Source: a virus (Duplodnaviria > Heunggongvirae > Uroviricota > Caudoviricetes). From it: a DNA stretch of 64,000 nucleotides. The DNA lies in IMG/VR virus record IMGVR_UViG_3300034357_000765; one strand, 5' to 3'. Below, piece by piece: positions 33,783 to 39,987 of this stretch. The notes beneath the pieces are model-generated. The model made no database searches and was not told the DNA's origin. It worked only from the letters and a program-made list of their open reading frames with translations. Position 1 is the stretch's first letter, and every line of letters begins with the position of its first letter. The position numbers and the translations under genes were made by a program.

Positions 33783-36335
33783 ATGAGCATGATAAAAGTA
33801 ACAAAAAGAAATGGCAAGAAGGAGCCAGTGAAGTTTGATAAGATCGTGGATCGTATAACTCAGCAAACTTACGGGCTAGACCAGAAATGGATCGTGCCTT
33901 TCGAGATTGCCCAAAAGGTAATCGAAGGAATCACTCCCGATGTTAAGACTTCTATTCTTGACCAGCTTTCGATGGAGACCGCAGCGTCTCTTGCAACAAA
34001 GCATCCTGATTATTCGATACTAGCCGCGAGATTGGCGATTACATCTTTACACAAAGAAACTAAGAAAAGTTTCTCTGAGACTGTAGAAGATTTATACAAA
34101 TACGTTGACCCTAAGACTGGACTACACTCTCCAATCGTCTCTGAAAAATTCAACGCTTTAGTAAAAGCACACGCAGACGAAATTGATTCTGCGATTGTTC
34201 ACTCTAGAGATCACAACTTTGACTATTTTGGATTCAAAACATTAGAGAAATCTTATCTTTTGAAGATTGATGGTAGAGTTGCTGAAAGACCTCAGTATAT
34301 GTATATGAGAACTGCACTTCAAATCTGGGGAGAGAACCTAGAAAGAGCATTCAAAACGTATAACGAACTATCAGAAGGGTATTACACTCACGCAACTCCA
34401 ACGTTGTTCAACTCTGGAACTCCAAGACCTCAATTGTCTTCTTGTTTCCTTTTAGATACTGAGTCGGATTCTATCGAAGGTATCTTTGATACTTTAAAAG
34501 AAGCGGCTTTGATTTCTAAAAATGCAGGTGGTATCGGTATTTCTTTTAACAAAGTAAGATCTAAAGGAACTTACATTGCAGGTACAAACGGAACTTCAAA
34601 TGGTATCGTTCCTTTTTTGAAAATCTTCAACGAAACTGCAAGAGCGGTGGACCAAGGTGGTGGAAAAAGAAAAGGATCTATTGCAATCTATATGGAACCG
34701 TGGCACGGTGATATCATGGACTTCTTGGATTTGAGAAAGAACCAAGGTAAGGATGAGATTAGAGCTAGAGATTTATTCTTGGCAATGTGGATGAACGACC
34801 TTTTCATGGAAAGAATCGAACTTGATGAAGATTGGGCTTTGATGTGTCCTCACGAATGTGCTGGTCTTAATGAGACTTACGGTGAAGAGTTTAGAGCACT
34901 TTATACTAAGTATGAAGCAGAAGGTAAATACAAAAAGGTTGTTAAGGCTAGAGATGTTTGGAACAAAATTTTAGAATCTCAAATCGAAACAGGAACTCCT
35001 TATTTACTTTACAAAGATTCTATCAATATGAAATCTAACCAATCAAATATTGGAATCATCAGATCCTCAAACCTTTGTGCAGAAATTGTTGAGGCAACTG
35101 GAGCTACTAAGACTCAAAAGGATATTTTGAATAACAAAGAATTGTTAGAGAAATTAGGATTAGGAGATTTCTATGGTGAAGAGTCTATAAACGAAACAGC
35201 TGTATGTAATTTAGCATCTGTTGCTCTTCCTAAGTTTGTCAATAAGAACAAAACATACAACTACAACAAATTGTATGAAGTTGCTTACGATGCTATCGTA
35301 AACTTAAACAACGTTATTGATGTGAACTACTATCCTTCAAGAGGTGCTAAGTTTTCAAACTTATGTCATCGTCCAGTTGGTTTAGGTGTTCAAGGATTGG
35401 CAGATGTTTACTTTATGATGGGACTTCCTTATGAATCAGAAGAAGCTAAACAAATCAACAAAGAGATTTTTGAAACTATCTATTACGCTTCTATCAAAGC
35501 TTCTTGTGACTTAGCTAAAGAACAAGGTACTTATGCTACTTACGAAGGATCTCCAATCTCTAAAGGAGAATTTCAGTTTGACTTATGGGGTGCTAAACCT
35601 AGTAAAAGATGGGATTGGGAAAAACTTAGAGAAGAAGTTAAGAAACACGGTGTTAGAAACTCTCTAACGACTTGTATCATGCCAACTGCATCAACTGCAT
35701 CTATCTTAGGAAACGAAGCATCTTGTGAGGCACAGACATCAAATATGTACACAAGAAGTGTTCTTTCTGGAACTTTCATTATGGTAAACAAATACTTAGT
35801 GAAAGAACTTGTTAAACTTGGATTGTGGAATGAGGCATTAAGAAAGAAAATCATTACTGAAAACGGTTCTGTTCAGAATGTTCCTGAGGTTCCCACGAAC
35901 TTGAAAGAAATATTCAAAACTGTTTATGAGATTAAACAAAAAGACGTTATTGATATGGCGGCTGAAAGAGGTGCTTTCATCGACCAAACACAATCAATGA
36001 ACATCTTTATGGATTCTCCAAACTTTGCTAAGTTAACTGCTATGCATTTTTATGGTTGGGGAAGAAGAAACTTTATGAAAAATGAAAATGGTGAGATTAT
36101 CATACCACAAGGTGATAATATACAAATCATTTATGATTCAGAAGGTGAGGCAAGATGTTATAGAGATAAGAGATATAGTTTGAAAACTGGGATCTACTAT
36201 TTAAGAAACAAATCTGCAAACGATGCTGTTAAGTTTACGGTTCAAGAAGAGTCTAAGAAAACTGTTGAAGAACAAATGGCAGAAATCAGTTGTTCACTTG
36301 ACAATCCAGATGATTGTTTGGCGTGTGGAGCTTAA
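33783..36335 (+). CDS. nrdA: Class Ia ribonucleotide reductase alpha subunit with ATP cone
   Basis: VTKRNG ATP cone, ATPTLFNSG, QLSSCFL, SNLCAEI, VCNLAS, MPTAST, LKTGIYYLR, C-terminal CxxxxxxxCLACG. Confidence 0.97.
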   Translation: MSMIKVTKRNGKKEPVKFDKIVDRITQQTYGLDQKWIVPFEIAQKVIEGITPDVKTSILDQLSMETAASLATKHPDYSILAARLAITSLHKETKKSFSETVEDLYKYVDPKTGLHSPIVSEKFNALVKAHADEIDSAIVHSRDHNFDYFGFKTLEKSYLLKIDGRVAERPQYMYMRTALQIWGENLERAFKTYNELSEGYYTHATPTLFNSGTPRPQLSSCFLLDTESDSIEGIFDTLKEAALISKNAGGIGISFNKVRSKGTYIAGTNGTSNGIVPFLKIFNETARAVDQGGGKRKGSIAIYMEPWHGDIMDFLDLRKNQGKDEIRARDLFLAMWMNDLFMERIELDEDWALMCPHECAGLNETYGEEFRALYTKYEAEGKYKKVVKARDVWNKILESQIETGTPYLLYKDSINMKSNQSNIGIIRSSNLCAEIVEATGATKTQKDILNNKELLEKLGLGDFYGEESINETAVCNLASVALPKFVNKNKTYNYNKLYEVAYDAIVNLNNVIDVNYYPSRGAKFSNLCHRPVGLGVQGLADVYFMMGLPYESEEAKQINKEIFETIYYASIKASCDLAKEQGTYATYEGSPISKGEFQFDLWGAKPSKRWDWEKLREEVKKHGVRNSLTTCIMPTASTASILGNEASCEAQTSNMYTRSVLSGTFIMVNKYLVKELVKLGLWNEALRKKIITENGSVQNVPEVPTNLKEIFKTVYEIKQKDVIDMAAERGAFIDQTQSMNIFMDSPNFAKLTAMHFYGWGRRNFMKNENGEIIIPQGDNIQIIYDSEGEARCYRDKRYSLKTGIYYLRNKSANDAVKFTVQEESKKTVEEQMAEISCSLDNPDDCLACGA

Positions 36336-36339
36336 AAAT

Positions 36340-36372
36340 AAAAATAGTGAGATTTTTTCTCACTATTTTTTT
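36340..36372 (+). terminator. Intrinsic terminator after nrdA
   Basis: AAAAATAGTGAGA-TTTT-TTCTCACTATTTTT. Confidence 0.8.
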
Positions 36373-36390
36373 GTATTTGAATTTTATTCT

Positions 36391-36398
36391 TATCTTTG
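36391..36398 (+). promoter_or_regulatory. Bacteroidota sigma70 -7 element pointing into the ncRNA-Ro60 locus
   Basis: TATCTTTG; a one-mismatch copy, TATATCTG, lies at 36515-36522. Confidence 0.5.
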
Positions 36399-36605
36399 TA
36401 GAAGAATAATCGACTATAAAAAATCCACTTTAGAAAAAAACGAAATTTTAGAGGTCGATATATACTAAACAAAATAAAAAACTTTAAAACTTTTTGGTAG
36501 ATTGAAATATAAAATATATCTGTGTAAGACAAAATCAAGCAAAGAAATATTTTTAACTAAATCAAAACTTTTTAAAAAAACTTAATAAAACATAAACAAT
36601 ATTTA

Positions 36606-36675
36606 ACCGTAGCAAGACAAAAGAGTTACTTCGAAATTGGATTCTAAAAAAACACTCTTTATCGCTTTTCTCGGT
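36606..36675 (+). ncRNA. Short Y-RNA-like hairpin (unit 1)
   Basis: Terminal ACCG/CGGT; AAAGAGT(36620-26)/ACTCTTT(36654-60) helix continuing past a bulged C; contains AGTTACTTCGAAA; lies upstream of Ro60. Confidence 0.5.
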
Positions 36676-36685
36676 CATTTTATTA

Positions 36686-36974
36686 TAGCAAACATAGCAA
36701 TAGTTTAAGTTACTTCGAAACTAAATTATAACTACGATCGAAAGTGCCTAGCGACAGCGAAGCTACTGAATCAAGAAACGAAGCTCGAAAGAGACATTCT
36801 TGATTAAAGTGAAAAAGTCCAGTTGACTACTGAAGTCCTCTTTTTAAGAGGCGGCGTCAAGGAAAAAGTTTACTTCCTTTAAATAAAAAAACTCGTGGGA
36901 TGGACACGTTAACCACAGGCAGAGTTTCGGGAGAATTCTCTGTAACGCCTTAGGCTAACCTTTCTTGTTTGCTA
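36686..36974 (+). ncRNA. About 290-nt multi-hairpin structured RNA (unit 2, long Y-RNA-like)
   Basis: Closing stem TAGCAAACA(36686-94)/TGTTTGCTA(36966-74); second AGTTACTTCGAAA; GCCTAG/TTAGGC; AATCAAGAA/TTCTTGATT enclosing CTC-GAAA-GAG; CCTCTT/AAGAGG; TTGAC/GTCAA; GTGG/CCAC; GCAGAG/CTCTGT. GC-richer than the flanks and without an ORF. Confidence 0.65.
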
Positions 36975-36985
36975 AACTACTAATG

Positions 36986-37025
36986 ACCAGAATACTACAG
37001 AAATGTACTATTCTGGTTTTTTTTT
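36986..37025 (+). terminator. Intrinsic terminator/attenuator just upstream of the Ro60 start
   Basis: ACCAGAATA-C-TACA-GAAA-TGTA-C-TATTCTGGT followed by a T9 run, ending 24 nt before ATG 37050. Confidence 0.75.
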
Positions 37026-37049
37026 GAACTTAAAAAAATTTTATATATT

Positions 37050-38504
37050 ATGAGTAAATTCAACACAACCGTAACAAAGTCTAAGACTTTAACAGAAAAC
37101 TTGGCAGGTGGTCAAGCATATGCACAATCTAATGAACTAGCATTGGTATCAATGTTATTGACTTCGTTTGTAAACGACCAATTCTATAAAAGTGGTTCAA
37201 CTACTTTAAAGGATCTTAAAGCTTTGTCTGAAAAGATTAAAGATAAAGAGTTTGTGGCTAAAGCTGCAATCTATGCTAGAGATAAGTTTGGTATGAGATC
37301 AATCACTCACGGATTGGCAGGTGAACTTACGTCTCAACTTACAGGTTTTGATTGGGGTAAGAACTTTTATGATAAAGTAGTTGTTCGTCCAGACGACATG
37401 ACTGAAATCTTATCTTATTACTTAGCCAATAAGACTGATAAGTCTAAACCAAAGTTTCCTAACGCTTTGAAGAAAGGTTTTGCTACTGCGTTTGATAAGT
37501 TTGATGGATACCAATTGGCTAAGTATAAAGGTGAAAACAAAGAAGTTAAACTTGTTGATGTCGTGAACATCGTACACCCTATCCCAACAGATAGAAACCG
37601 TGAGGCACTTAACTTGTTAATCAACGATAAGTTGAAAAACACTGACACTTGGGAAGCAAAACTTTCTGCGGCGGGTCAAACTGCTGAGAATGAAGAAGAC
37701 TTATCTAAGTTGAAGTCTGATGCTTGGGGAGAGTTAATCTCTACAAGAAGAATTGGATACTTTGCTCTTTTGAGAAACTTGAGAAACATCATCACTCAAG
37801 CACCAGATGCAGTAACCGCTGCTTGTGAGTTGTTAGTTGATGAAAACTTAATCAAAAGAAGTCGTGTACTTCCTTTCAGATTCGCTACGGCTTATGAGGA
37901 AATCTCTAAGCTAGGTTCTGACAAAGCGGTGAGAGACGTTTTGGTTGCTATCAACCAAGCACTTGAAGTTTCTTTGGTGAACGTTCCTAAGTTTGATGGT
38001 GAGACGCTTGTTGTTATGGACGTTTCTGGATCTATGTCTGGTAAACCATCTGAAATCGCGAGTTTGTTTGGAGCTATTTTGGCGAAAGTCAACAACTGCG
38101 ACGTTATGACATTCTCAAACGATGCTCAGTATAAGTCTTACAATCCATTGGATTCTGTAATGACAATAAGAGGATCTTTCAGATACTCTGGTGGTGGTAC
38201 TAACTTCAAGGCAATCTTCAACAAAGCCAACAAGAAGTATGACAGAGTGATTATCCTTTCAGACATGCAAGGATGGATGGGTTATACCACTCCAGCATAT
38301 GAGTTCGCTTCTTACAAGAAGAAATTCGATGCTAACCCATTTGTTTACTCTTGGGACTTGGCTGGTCTTGGAACACTTCAGTTCCCAGAACAAAATGTCT
38401 TCGCATTGGCAGGATTCTCTGACAAAGTATTCGACATCATGAAGTTGATGGAGATTGACAAAAAGGCTCTCTTCAATGAGATTAAAGCTATTCAACTTAG
38501 CTAA
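37050..38504 (+). CDS. rsr: Ro60/TROVE-domain RNA-binding protein with C-terminal vWA domain
   Basis: NLAGGQAY, YARDKFGMRS, YQLAKY, GYFALLRNLRN, RVLPFRF, MIDAS-like MDVSGSM, GGGTNF, IILSDMQ, LAGFSDKVF. Confidence 0.92.
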   Translation: MSKFNTTVTKSKTLTENLAGGQAYAQSNELALVSMLLTSFVNDQFYKSGSTTLKDLKALSEKIKDKEFVAKAAIYARDKFGMRSITHGLAGELTSQLTGFDWGKNFYDKVVVRPDDMTEILSYYLANKTDKSKPKFPNALKKGFATAFDKFDGYQLAKYKGENKEVKLVDVVNIVHPIPTDRNREALNLLINDKLKNTDTWEAKLSAAGQTAENEEDLSKLKSDAWGELISTRRIGYFALLRNLRNIITQAPDAVTAACELLVDENLIKRSRVLPFRFATAYEEISKLGSDKAVRDVLVAINQALEVSLVNVPKFDGETLVVMDVSGSMSGKPSEIASLFGAILAKVNNCDVMTFSNDAQYKSYNPLDSVMTIRGSFRYSGGGTNFKAIFNKANKKYDRVIILSDMQGWMGYTTPAYEFASYKKKFDANPFVYSWDLAGLGTLQFPEQNVFALAGFSDKVFDIMKLMEIDKKALFNEIKAIQLS

Positions 38505-38568: not shown

Positions 38569-39219
38569 ATGGCATTTCACTATTCGCCGAGAATCATAAA
38601 TGATAGAAGTCTAATACTATATTTGGATGCTGGCAATCCTAAAAGTTATACTGGTTCCTCTATCATATGGACTGATATAAGTAAGAGCGAGTATAATTCT
38701 ACACTGAACAGCGTAACATACAACTCTGTAGATAGTGGAAGTATGGTTTTTAACGGATCTACTAGTAATGTCACCTGTGGTAATATACCAATTGGTAGTT
38801 CGGGAACTGTGAATGTTTGGTTCAAACAGGATGCAGCAGTGGCGAACAAGGGATTGGTGGGTATTGGTACGAACACATGGCTATATATAGGTGGTTCGGG
38901 TGCAAATACCATGTTGGGTGTATACAACGGAACGACTTACTCTAGCGGAATATTGTTAAATGGATCTACATCTTGGAACTTTGCTTCTTTTGTTTGGAGT
39001 GGAACTACACTAACTATATACCTCAATGGTGGATCTCCGATATCTTCAACTATTTCTTTTACCAATTCGGGTAATGTTGTTATAGGAGTCTATCCTTCCA
39101 ATGTAGTCGGTTCATATTTTAACGGAAAAATATCCAATGTTCAGATATACAACAGAAACCTTTCTGCTGACGAGATATTACAGAACTACAACGCTCTAAA
39201 AACTAGATTTGGACTATAG
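38569..39219 (+). CDS. LamG/concanavalin-A-like domain virion protein
   Basis: LILYLDAGNPKSY, TVNVWFK, FNGKISNVQIYNRNLSADEILQNYNA. Confidence 0.85.
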   Translation: MAFHYSPRIINDRSLILYLDAGNPKSYTGSSIIWTDISKSEYNSTLNSVTYNSVDSGSMVFNGSTSNVTCGNIPIGSSGTVNVWFKQDAAVANKGLVGIGTNTWLYIGGSGANTMLGVYNGTTYSSGILLNGSTSWNFASFVWSGTTLTIYLNGGSPISSTISFTNSGNVVIGVYPSNVVGSYFNGKISNVQIYNRNLSADEILQNYNALKTRFGL

Positions 39220-39987
39220 TTTCCAGATCTCTTGAAGGTTTATCTTCGAACTCATTTCTATTATCTTGTTGTTTCTCTTTAGAGAATACTTTTGAAGAGG
39301 AATAAACATCTTTACCACACTATCTGTCTTATCGACTTCTTCTTCATCCATATCGAAGTTGAATATTTGTATAAGATTTTCTATTTCGTCGAAGGTGACA
39401 AATTCTTTATCTCCTAAAAAGTAAGTAAAGTTATAGCTATAGTCGTTGTATTGACTTGAGTCTTCTTCATATGATTTGTCTATAAGAAAACTAGTTAAAG
39501 AATTTTCTATACCTATCGATGGTAGTGTAAACTTGTATCCGTTTATGTCAAAACATCTGTCTTCGGAATTCCAATCCTTCATTATTTCTTCATCAAGATA
39601 GCAATAGTTGAATGTTTTTTCATCAAAGTCTACTTTGTCTATCAACCCAATTTCATCATTGAAGTATTCCAATTGTACTGGCTTGTTTTTGGTAAGTCTT
39701 ACTATCTCCAGGAATATGAATATTACGTCTATACTCTTTATATGGTTGAATGAGTATCCTTCTGTTAAAACTATGTTGTTTTCTACGATTCTCTTCAACT
39801 TTCCTAAAACTATACTAAGATCTTCTCTGTCATACCCGGTTTCATATTCTAATACTTCTTTCTTATCAACTTTCTTAATAGTTATCTTAAAATTATCTTT
39901 GTAAAACAATCCTTGTGAAGGAAGGTTTTTAATATCTATTGTCTTCTTCTTGGTGAAGAACCTCTTTATAAAATCTATTAGTATCAT
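39214..39987 (-). CDS. Possible baseplate hub protein (T4 gp26-like)
   Basis: IDIKNLPSQGLFY N-terminal motif and FTLPSI, as seen in gp26-like proteins. Confidence 0.5.
   Translation of the reverse strand: MILIDFIKRFFTKKKTIDIKNLPSQGLFYKDNFKITIKKVDKKEVLEYETGYDREDLSIVLGKLKRIVENNIVLTEGYSFNHIKSIDVIFIFLEIVRLTKNKPVQLEYFNDEIGLIDKVDFDEKTFNYCYLDEEIMKDWNSEDRCFDINGYKFTLPSIGIENSLTSFLIDKSYEEDSSQYNDYSYNFTYFLGDKEFVTFDEIENLIQIFNFDMDEEEVDKTDSVVKMFIPLQKYSLKRNNKIIEMSSKINLQEIWKL

What the first reader, a model, noticed from the sequence alone, without database searches (positions are those of the whole stretch)
36391..38504. Phage Ro60 gene preceded by a tandem pair of Y-RNA-like structured RNAs, one with an unrecognised ~230-nt domain
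Seen in sequence: the ORF-free, GC-richer region before Ro60 holds two units that each begin TAGCAA followed 13-14 nt later by AGTTACTTCGAAA (36624 and 36708). Unit 1 (36606-36675) is a ~70-nt hairpin with a bulged-C helix. Unit 2 (36686-36974) is closed by a perfect 9-bp long-range stem and contains at least six nested helices, including a GNRA-capped one. Established: bacterial Ro60 (Rsr) genes are flanked by Y RNA genes (Deinococcus Yrn1/2, Salmonella YrlA/YrlB) whose Ro-binding stem tethers an effector domain, often tRNA-like. Inference: this is a phage Ro60-Y RNA module in which the long RNA carries a domain that does not look tRNA-like, possibly a decoy or tether for host RNases or RNA-targeting defences.
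Basis: partly seen in the sequence, partly recalled or inferred. Interest (0 to 1): 0.85.

Follow-up and report, generated by a model that had tools for sequence, protein, structure and literature searches.

The report
Phage Ro60 with two Y RNAs
A huge freshwater phage encodes the ring-shaped RNA-binding protein Ro60 and, just upstream, two conserved partner RNAs built on one shared "handle"; the longer one carries a ~230-base pseudoknotted domain where related RNAs carry a tRNA look-alike, and I found no description of that domain.

Summary
Window 37050-38504 encodes a TROVE+vWA Ro60. Its closest solved relative is the Thermus phage phiLo Ro60, which binds two upstream Y-like RNAs.

Upstream lie two structured RNAs, 36606-36675 and 36686-36974, followed by a strong terminator. 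Both recur in every related locus that could be checked: 64 and 66 distinct sequences from phage contigs and lake metagenomes, always in the order unit 1, unit 2, Ro60. Covariation is strong in both (about 95% of cells paired against 33-49% in slid controls; 0/500 shuffles).

The two units share one handle: closing stem, bulged U, a 5-bp helix with a conserved mismatch, a 3-nt bulge, a second stem, then an invariant UACUUCG. The same handle carries plain T-arm/D-arm (YrlA-type) inserts in more distant phage and Bacteroidota Ro60 loci. There UACUUCG aligns onto YrlA's proposed Ro60-binding motif.

Unit 2's insert is instead at least eight helices plus a covarying pseudoknot. It matches no Rfam family, and I found it in no bacterial locus.

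This is a new variant of a known kind, the Ro60-Y RNA module. Binding, expression and the insert's function are untested. This scan had already noted Ro60-linked handle RNAs on other DNA.

The parts
36563..36592 (+). Upstream box conserved among relatives (AAACTTT ... ATAAAA-type), a candidate promoter of the RNA unit. Not validated.
   Evidence: Conserved block in the alignment of 16 upstream regions. The sigma-70 consensus scan finds nothing here.
36606..36675 (+). Unit 1, a short Y RNA consisting of the handle only. P1 is 36606-09/36672-75. U36610 is bulged. Px is 36611-15/36667-71, with C36613/U36669 non-Watson-Crick. The 3-nt bulge is 36664-66. P2 is 36616-26/36654-63. The apical part is a short hairpin plus an A-rich strand, 36646-53.
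   Evidence: 64 distinct homologues: 95.3% of cells paired, 11 of 19 pairs with changes on both sides, 0/500 shuffles, slid controls 32-49%. Covariance model R1 scores it 70 bits, E 1.5e-13.
36627..36633 (+). UACUUCG motif of unit 1, at the mouth of the apical loop.
   Evidence: The UUCG columns are invariant and the preceding UAC columns are at least 90% conserved in 64 sequences. The motif aligns to the GNCGAA(N)G region of Rfam YrlA in the sister locus L019.
36686..36974 (+). Unit 2, a long Y RNA: handle plus a ~230-nt cargo domain.
   Evidence: 66 distinct homologues: 95.4% of cells paired, 25 of 51 pairs with changes on both sides, 215 such cells, 0/500 shuffles, slid controls 33-44%.
36688..36717 (+). 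5' half of the unit 2 handle: P1 36688-94, bulged U36695, Px 36696-700, P2 36701-09, UACUUCG 36711-17.
   Evidence: The layout and consensus match unit 1.
36718..36948 (+). Cargo domain.
- Variable hairpin after the motif.
- P4 36746-47/36762-63, whose loop contains the conserved sequence AGCGACAGC.
- P5 36764-67/36808-11, with a GAAA-capped extension.
- A-rich joiner 36812-17.
- P6 36825-27/36856-58.
- Optional P7 36859-64/36874-79.
- P8 36894-98/36904-08.
- P9 36920-24/36938-42, capped by GGGA at 36929-32.
   Evidence: Per-helix counts. P7 is absent from 21 of the 66 sequences. No Rfam match at E<=10.
36899..36917 (+). Pseudoknot: the P8 loop 36899-903 pairs with 36913-17.
   Evidence: 83-95% of cells paired, with changes on both sides in 3 of 5 pairs. 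Examples: GGCC/GGCC in L041 against GGUC/GACC in L043, and UGG/CCA in the window against CGG/CCG in L060.
36949..36972 (+). 3' half of the unit 2 handle: P2 36949-57, 3-nt bulge 36958-60, Px 36961-65, P1 36966-72.
36985..37027 (+). Intrinsic terminator: hairpin 36985-37018 followed by a U tract.
   Evidence: -16 kcal/mol, z = -5.2. Conserved in all 16 aligned relatives.
37050..38504 (+). Ro60 gene, 484 aa, with TROVE and vWA domains.
   Evidence: Pfam TROVE 3.9e-20, plus weaker vWA-domain matches below Pfam's cut-offs (VWA_CoxE, vWA_Ro60). phrog_850, 1.2e-44. Best PDB match is phiLo phiRo60 (9KOP/9L5Y), E 3.6e-22 over residues 12-476.

Best explanation
The locus encodes two Y RNAs that partner the phage's Ro60. 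They are probably made from one promoter-to-terminator unit (about 36595-37027) and may then be cut apart.

Each RNA has the same handle: a closing stem, one bulged U, a 5-bp helix with a conserved mismatch, a 3-nt bulge on the other strand, a second stem, and an invariant UACUUCG where the apical part begins. I infer that this handle is where the Ro60 ring docks, as the bulged helix and CGAA-type motif do in animal, Deinococcus, Salmonella and phiLo Y RNAs.

The apical part is exchangeable cargo. In unit 1 it is only a short hairpin and an A-rich strand, like YrlB. In unit 2 it is a ~230-nt domain of at least eight helices with a pseudoknot. By analogy with the Ro60-Y RNA-PNPase machine, I think the cargo most likely recruits or positions a partner on Ro60. 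The best candidate is a host 3'-5' exoribonuclease such as PNPase, bound through the conserved A-rich single strands. This would steer Ro60-dependent handling of structured RNA during infection.

Shown here: the structures, their conservation, their linkage to Ro60, and homology of the handle with YrlA-type RNAs. Inferred: transcription, Ro60 binding, and any role of the cargo.
For: 1. Ro60 identity. The closest solved relative is phiLo phiRo60, which binds two upstream Y-like RNAs and forms ternary complexes with host PNPase (PMC12135203).

2. Linkage.
- All 66 metagenome loci found through a unit 2 5' pattern have unit 1 directly upstream.
- They have Ro60 about 65-225 nt downstream wherever the contig reaches that far.
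- All 15 true viral-contig hits to a cargo pattern show the same arrangement.

3. Covariation. Conserved G-U pairs in P2 (UG in 62 and 60 of 66 sequences) fit only the + strand.

4. The two units have the same handle consensus.

5. The handle model R1 finds units upstream of Ro60 in:
- all 13 more distant phage loci searched (Ro60 47-71% identical), some hits spanning T-arm/D-arm inserts end to end;
- 11 of 19 bacterial MAG loci, with all 21 hits on the Ro60 strand and upstream of it.
In three 6.4-8.4 Mb genomes the only hits at E<=0.01 lie at the Ro60 locus.

6. In L019 two such units hit Rfam YrlA (40.2 bits, E 1.5e-7; 33.8 bits, E 1e-5). UACUUCGAAUGC aligns on the YrlA 5' consensus that holds the GNCGAA(N)G motif proposed to bind Rsr (PMC4201824).

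7. Loci with the cargo form one 100/100-supported Ro60 clade. Sister clades carry tRNA-like inserts.
Against: - There are no expression data.
- There is no binding evidence for this protein or these RNAs.
- Neither window unit reaches Rfam YrlA even at E<=10.
- Only UUCG, not CGAA, is conserved in the motif.
- R1 does not detect the phiLo Yrl RNAs, so the link to the one experimentally bound phage pair rests on the protein and the architecture only.
- R1 misses unit 2. Its handle is matched by consensus comparison, not by a score.
- Unit 1 is thermodynamically unremarkable.
- A conserved local complement (AACUAU-like, about 36731-36) could compete with P2, so the drawn fold may be one of two states.
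Confidence: 0.8

Rival explanations
1. The region is mainly a cis-acting leader of the Ro60 mRNA. The structured RNA and the terminator 22 nt before the ATG would form an attenuator. Ro60 binding its own leader, or another signal, would set read-through.
For: Same strand, immediately upstream of Ro60. A strong conserved terminator lies between the RNA and the ATG. No clear separate promoter for Ro60 was found, only a weak TTGAAC/TATTAT match. There may be alternative pairing around P2.
Against: The same handle occurs far from Ro60 inside tRNA arrays in LR745206.1, and in arrays of several units upstream of bacterial Ro60 genes in some MAG loci. Neither fits a leader. No sequence in unit 2 competes with the terminator stem. 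About 12 nt separate the end of P1 from the terminator hairpin. This rival is compatible with the best explanation, since a Y RNA can also be the front of a read-through transcript.
Confidence: 0.12
2. The ~230-nt domain is a self-contained functional RNA, for example a protein sponge, a mimic of a host RNA, or a ligand-binding or catalytic fold. It would use the Y RNA handle only as a stable frame or processing signal, and would act without Ro60.
For: The cargo has its own highly conserved single-stranded and loop sequences (AGCGACAGC, GUGAAAAAGUCC, GUUUCGGGAGAAUUC) and a pseudoknot. These are typical of a specific binding surface. Cargo is exchangeable on this handle.
Against: In the collections searched the cargo was found only on the handle and only next to Ro60. 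It matches no Rfam family. A BLAST search found no sequence match in five bacterial genomes that carry the related Ro60 (best E 0.015 over 37 nt).
Confidence: 0.08

Closest known systems
Thermus phage phiLo phiRo60 with Yrl1 and Yrl2 (PMC12135203; PDB 9KOP, 9L5Y)
   Same: A phage Ro60 gene preceded on the same strand by two Y-like RNAs. Each has a 5'-3' stem and a CGAA-type motif at an internal loop. It is the protein in the PDB most similar to the window's Ro60 (E 3.6e-22, full length).
   Different: The phiLo RNAs are short and GC-rich, and the handle model does not detect them. No large structured cargo has been described for them.
Bacterial and phage YrlA / YrlB (Rfam RF02553; Chen et al. 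2014, PMC4201824)
   Same: Encoded next to Ro60 on the same strand, as one long and one short RNA. The UACUUCG(AA) motif corresponds to the GNCGAA(N)G motif. Sister loci carry the YrlA order T arm, stem-loop, D arm on the same handle.
   Different: Neither window RNA has T or D arms or reaches YrlA even at E<=10. Unit 2 carries a ~230-nt pseudoknotted domain instead. Both strands of a bulged handle helix are conserved here, whereas only the 5' strand is recognisable in the Salmonella and M. smegmatis RNAs (PMC4201824).
Deinococcus radiodurans Yrn1-Rsr-PNPase (RYPER)
   Same: A modular Y RNA: a bulged stem for Ro60 and a separate effector module that tethers a nuclease. This is the model for the mechanism proposed here.
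   Different: No PNPase link has been shown here. The effector module is unrelated in sequence and much larger.
Metazoan Y RNAs
   Same: The handle has a single-nucleotide bulge on the 5' strand, a short conserved helix and a bulge on the 3' strand. This is the general layout of the bulged helix that Ro60 recognises in animal Y RNAs (as summarised in PMC12135203; the detailed layout is from my own knowledge).
   Different: The sequences differ (GGUCCGA against UAGYRA and UACUUCG), the transcription machinery differs, and animal Y RNAs have no large structured body.

Membership tests
Y RNA in the broad sense (Ro60 partner RNA) | Gene lies next to a Ro60/TROVE gene, on the same strand | tested here: met
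   Units 1 and 2 lie 375 and 76 nt upstream of Ro60 on the + strand. The same order is seen in every related locus long enough to check.
Y RNA in the broad sense (Ro60 partner RNA) | The 5' and 3' ends pair into a stem that contains a conserved bulged helix | tested here: met
   P1, bulged U, Px, 3-nt bulge, P2. These covary in 64 and 66 sequences.
Y RNA in the broad sense (Ro60 partner RNA) | Physically bound by Ro60 | not testable with these tools
   Needs EMSA or pull-down. Only analogy to phiLo phiRo60-Yrl (PMC12135203) is available.
Y RNA in the broad sense (Ro60 partner RNA) | Expressed as a discrete stable RNA | not testable with these tools
The conserved terminator is indirect support.
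YrlA (Rfam RF02553) | Reaches the family's gathering score (69 bits) | tested here: not met
   No YrlA hit in the window at the gathering score or at E<=10. Sister-locus units reach 40.2 and 33.8 bits.
YrlA (Rfam RF02553) | tRNA-like domain in the order T arm, stem-loop, D arm | tested here: not met
   No T-arm or D-arm strings in the window's upstream region. No tRNA or YrlA match in the window or in nine divergent unit 2 loci. Present on the same handle in L018-L025, L032 and LR745206.1 369033-369175.
YrlA (Rfam RF02553) | GNCGAA(N)G motif near the 5' end | tested here: inconclusive
   The window has UUCGAAA in both units, so CGAA is present. Across homologues only UACUUCG is invariant and the leading G is a U. 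The correspondence is supported by the YrlA alignment of L019.
YrlB-like short Y RNA | Short Ro60-linked RNA with the binding motif but no tRNA-like module | tested here: met
   Unit 1 is 70 nt and has only the handle. This is a likeness of layout; no sequence homology to Salmonella YrlB was tested.

The most novel reading that the evidence does not exclude
The Y RNA handle is a general display platform, and unit 2 shows a large, non-tRNA, pseudoknotted cargo of a kind I did not find described. On this reading the domain is a new class of structured RNA that gives phage Ro60 a second specificity, different from tRNA mimicry. It might recruit host PNPase or another nuclease to structured host RNA. 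Because the class I ribonucleotide reductase gene lies directly upstream in the whole clade, the nucleoside diphosphates released by PNPase could feed phage DNA synthesis.
Probability: 0.3. Interest if true: 0.75.

Novelty: new variant of a known kind. Interest (0 to 1): 0.55.

Why it matters
All characterised bacterial and phage Y RNAs either mimic tRNA or are short. What the effector modules do remains the main open question about bacterial Ro60.

This locus supplies a natural comparison: the same handle appears beside one Ro60 bare, with a large structured non-tRNA body, and (in relatives) with a tRNA mimic. More than 60 covarying sequences define each fold. The handle's conserved bulges and the UACUUCG motif give precise mutations for testing how a phage Ro60 recognises its RNAs. 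The cargo gives a bait for finding what Ro60 is tethered to during infection by huge phages whose hosts are probably Bacteroidota.

Tried and rejected
- Rfam at gathering score on the whole window, and at E<=10 on 36300-37100: only terminator-like or chance hits. The same was true for nine divergent homologous loci.
- ARAGORN found no tRNA or tmRNA in the window.
No whole genome is held for it.
- Handle model R1 against the phiLo locus gave nothing better than E 0.77.
- R1 with filters off over the whole window found only unit 1. Unit 2's 230-nt insert is beyond what the model tolerates.
- BLAST of the cargo against five bacterial genomes carrying related Ro60 gave only chance-level pieces. 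An HMM of unit 2 against 19 bacterial Ro60 loci gave no hit at E<=10.
- MAFFT Q-INS-i (structure-aware alignment) is not installed in the box.
- Pairing of UACUU with the conserved AAGUG at 36742-46 was considered and set aside. It breaks in several homologues and has no counterpart in unit 1.
- Reading the cargo as a T-loop or D-loop relic was rejected. UUCG is followed by any base, and P9's UUCGGGA lacks the A58 equivalent.
- 5S rRNA likeness (AAGUGAAA, GAUGGU strings) was rejected: there is no 5S hit in Rfam at E<=10.
- Five of the 20 viral-contig hits to the 16-mer cargo pattern were chance matches without the RNA.
- No protein-complex prediction was attempted, because the partner in question is an RNA.
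Full report
**What is there**

The window between a class I ribonucleotide reductase gene (33783-36335) and a 484-aa ORF (37050-38504) has no long ORF.

The ORF is a Ro60:
- Pfam TROVE 3.9e-20, plus weaker vWA-domain matches below Pfam's cut-offs.
- PHROG 850 "RNA-binding protein", 1.2e-44.
- Its best match among solved structures, over its full length, is the Ro60 of Thermus phage phiLo (9KOP/9L5Y, E 3.6e-22).

The surrounding genes are a DnaB-type helicase, another helicase, a DNA methylase and a fibre protein with an S74 chaperone domain. The closest records are a 634-kb uncultured phage, LR745206.1, and IMG/VR contigs of up to 483 kb. Together these show the window comes from a huge phage.

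**The observation**

The 13-mer AGTTACTTCGAAA occurs only at 36624 and 36708. TAGCAA precedes each copy by 13-14 nt.

The whole 36600-37030 stretch folds somewhat better than shuffles (z = -2.4). Unit 1 alone does not (z = -0.33). The terminator 36985-37027 is strong (z = -5.2).

**Conservation and linkage**

I collected related loci in three ways:
- A protein-seeded scan of viral contigs gave 37 loci.
- A scan for a cargo 16-mer gave 15 true hits and 5 chance hits.
- A metagenome scan for the 25-nt 5' end of unit 2 gave 66 loci, many of them contigs from a few recurring JGI projects that I take to be freshwater-lake samples; two are labelled marine metagenome.

In all 66 metagenome loci unit 1 lies directly upstream of unit 2. 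Ro60 follows about 65-225 nt downstream wherever the contig continues. After removing identical copies there are 64 distinct unit 1 and 66 distinct unit 2 sequences.

The neighbourhood DnaB, ORF, RNR, RNAs, Ro60, then (after a variable gap) a 257-aa ORF and a methylase is syntenic across the clade.

**Structure**

| Measure | Unit 1 (19 pairs) | Unit 2 (51 pairs in 11 helix segments, incl. the pseudoknot) |
|---|---|---|
| Cells forming standard pairs | 95.3% | 95.4% |
| Same, with 3' partners slid 1-3 columns | 32-49% | 33-44% |
| Pairs with changes on both sides | 11 (106 cells) | 25 (215 cells) |
| Shuffles reaching the observed values | 0 of 500 | 0 of 500 |

In unit 1, nine of the ten P2 pairs covary.

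The pseudoknot joins the P8 loop to the 4-5 nt that follow the hairpin. Independent compensatory changes support it:
- GGCC/GGCC in L041 against GGUC/GACC in L043.
- UGG/CCA in the window against CGG/CCG in L060.
- G-C replaced by U-A in five sequences.

Conserved U-G and G-U pairs in P2 fix the RNA on the + strand.

Several cargo elements are optional or variable in length. P7 is absent from 21 of the 66 sequences. The P5 extension and P6 vary. Total length therefore runs from about 220 to about 300 nt.

**The shared handle**

Consensus extraction shows one layout in both units:
1. P1, of 4-7 bp.
2. An invariant bulged U on the 5' strand.
3. A 5-bp helix, AGYRA/UUNCU. Its outer pairs are invariant. 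Its central position is mostly non-Watson-Crick (C-U or C-A in unit 2; U-A, U-U and others in unit 1).
4. A 3-nt bulge on the 3' strand.
5. P2, of 9-10 bp.
6. UACUUCG.

This is the general design of the bulged helix that Ro60 recognises in animal Y RNAs (summarised in PMC12135203).

**Relation to YrlA**

The motif RGWUACUUCG occurs one to four times upstream of Ro60 in 12 of the 13 more distant phage loci (Ro60 47-71% identical); the exception, L024, has UACUUCA variants that the handle model still detects.

In L018-L025 and L032 the units that carry it contain plain T arms (GGUUCGAUUCC), a stem-loop and D arms (UAGCUCAGUUGGUAGAGC), in the YrlA order. Two of them match Rfam YrlA below the gathering score but significantly (40.2 bits, E 1.5e-7; 33.8 bits, E 1e-5). 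The YrlA 5' consensus holding the proposed Rsr-binding GNCGAA(N)G motif aligns onto ACUUCGAAUGC (PMC4201824).

I built a covariance model from unit 1 (R1). It finds:
- a short unit in every one of these loci;
- full-length matches that span tRNA-like inserts;
- 21 units, all upstream and on the Ro60 strand, in 11 of 19 bacterial MAG loci, mostly Bacteroidota such as Flavobacterium, Lutibacter and Saprospiraceae, plus Verrucomicrobia.

In three bacterial genomes of 6.4-8.4 Mb the only hits at E<=0.01 lie at the Ro60 locus. The handle is therefore the signature of the partner RNAs of this Ro60 branch. It is homologous to the Ro60-binding end of YrlA.

**The cargo**

Neither window unit, nor unit 2 in nine divergent loci, matches YrlA, tRNA or any other Rfam family at E<=10. 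An HMM of unit 2 finds nothing in the bacterial loci. BLAST of the cargo finds nothing meaningful in five bacterial genomes with related Ro60.

On a Ro60 tree the cargo-bearing loci form one clade with 100/100 support. It also contains L017, whose long unit has a different large body. The sister clades carry tRNA-like inserts. The root of that tree is not known, so "replacement" is only the parsimonious reading.

The clade is not devoid of tRNA mimics. In the complete relative LR745206.1, R1 finds three more handle RNAs inside tRNA arrays 100-150 kb from Ro60. One, at 369033-369175, is a textbook handle plus T arm, stem-loop and D arm. The window's 64 kb holds no tRNA array and no further handle, so I cannot say whether its genome has such RNAs.

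**Mechanism**

*Shown:* two conserved, covarying RNAs with one handle, strictly linked to Ro60. The handle is homologous to that of YrlA-type RNAs. The cargo is exchangeable.

*Inferred:* Ro60 binds the handle. The cargo positions a partner. The best-documented model is Ro60-Y RNA-PNPase in Deinococcus, with the ternary phiRo60-Yrl-PNPase complexes seen for phiLo (PMC12135203).

The invariant A-rich single strands are the kind of element that S1/KH domains bind (my own knowledge, untested). They are AAAAAAC in unit 1, and GUGAAAAAGUCC and UUUAAAUAAAGA in unit 2.

The RNR gene directly upstream makes a link to nucleotide salvage attractive, but that synteny is a property of the whole phage group and is absent from distant loci.

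The main rival is a leader or attenuator role for the RNA-plus-terminator. It is not excluded and could coexist with the Y RNA role.

**Novelty**

A phage Ro60 with two upstream Y-like RNAs is published (phiLo, 2025). Phage YrlA RNAs have been known since 2014. [quoted passage not shown]

I found no description of a Ro60-linked RNA with a large non-tRNA structured body in three literature searches or in Rfam.

Earlier agents of this scan have repeatedly noted Ro60-linked handle RNAs with variable cargo on other DNA. The platform idea is therefore not new within the scan. What is specific here is the handle's anatomy and the ~230-nt pseudoknotted cargo family.

Noticed in passing
L028:2501-4633 (also L029, L034, L086, L108): In several relatives the Ro60 gene is split into 156-aa and 324-aa ORFs. 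The split is made by a free-standing 224-aa ORF with weak NUMOD3/HNH hits, which looks like a homing-endonuclease insertion after about residue 160.
   Followed up: partly
LR745206.1 342959-343032, 369033-369175, 388895-389000 (L153-L155): Three more handle RNAs sit inside tRNA gene arrays 100-150 kb from the Ro60 locus of the closest complete relative. One is a full YrlA-type tRNA mimic on the same handle.
   Followed up: partly
window 36700-36705 with about 36731-36736: AUAGUU of the unit 2 handle has a second, local complement (AACUAU-like) in 65 of 66 homologues. It competes with the long-range P2 pairing, so this may be a conformational switch. The 5' side is invariant, so no covariation test is possible.
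   Followed up: partly
L016:2385-2500; also L065/L087 and L068: Some relatives have an extra 100-220 nt between the unit 2 terminator and Ro60. In L016 this stretch is GC-richer and folds into a multi-hairpin structure (-23.7 kcal/mol, z = -2.1). It has no UACUUCG motif.
   Followed up: partly
window 36672-36676 and 36985-37018; relatives: In most relatives the 3' end of unit 1 (CUCUGGUC) repeats the 3' half of the terminator stem (UCUGGUC) and is complementary to its 5' half (GACCAGA). In the window the match is imperfect. Its meaning is unknown.
   Followed up: no
window 39214-39987 (- strand): A 257-aa ORF with no Pfam or PHROG match lies downstream of Ro60 in 54 related loci; in the window it is on the strand opposite to Ro60.
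   Followed up: partly
L128, L130, L135 (bacterial MAG contigs), upstream of Ro60: Bacteroidota-type Ro60 loci carry tandem arrays of four to five handle units, each with T and D arms. This is many more than the one or two Y RNAs described for Salmonella or Deinococcus.
   Followed up: partly
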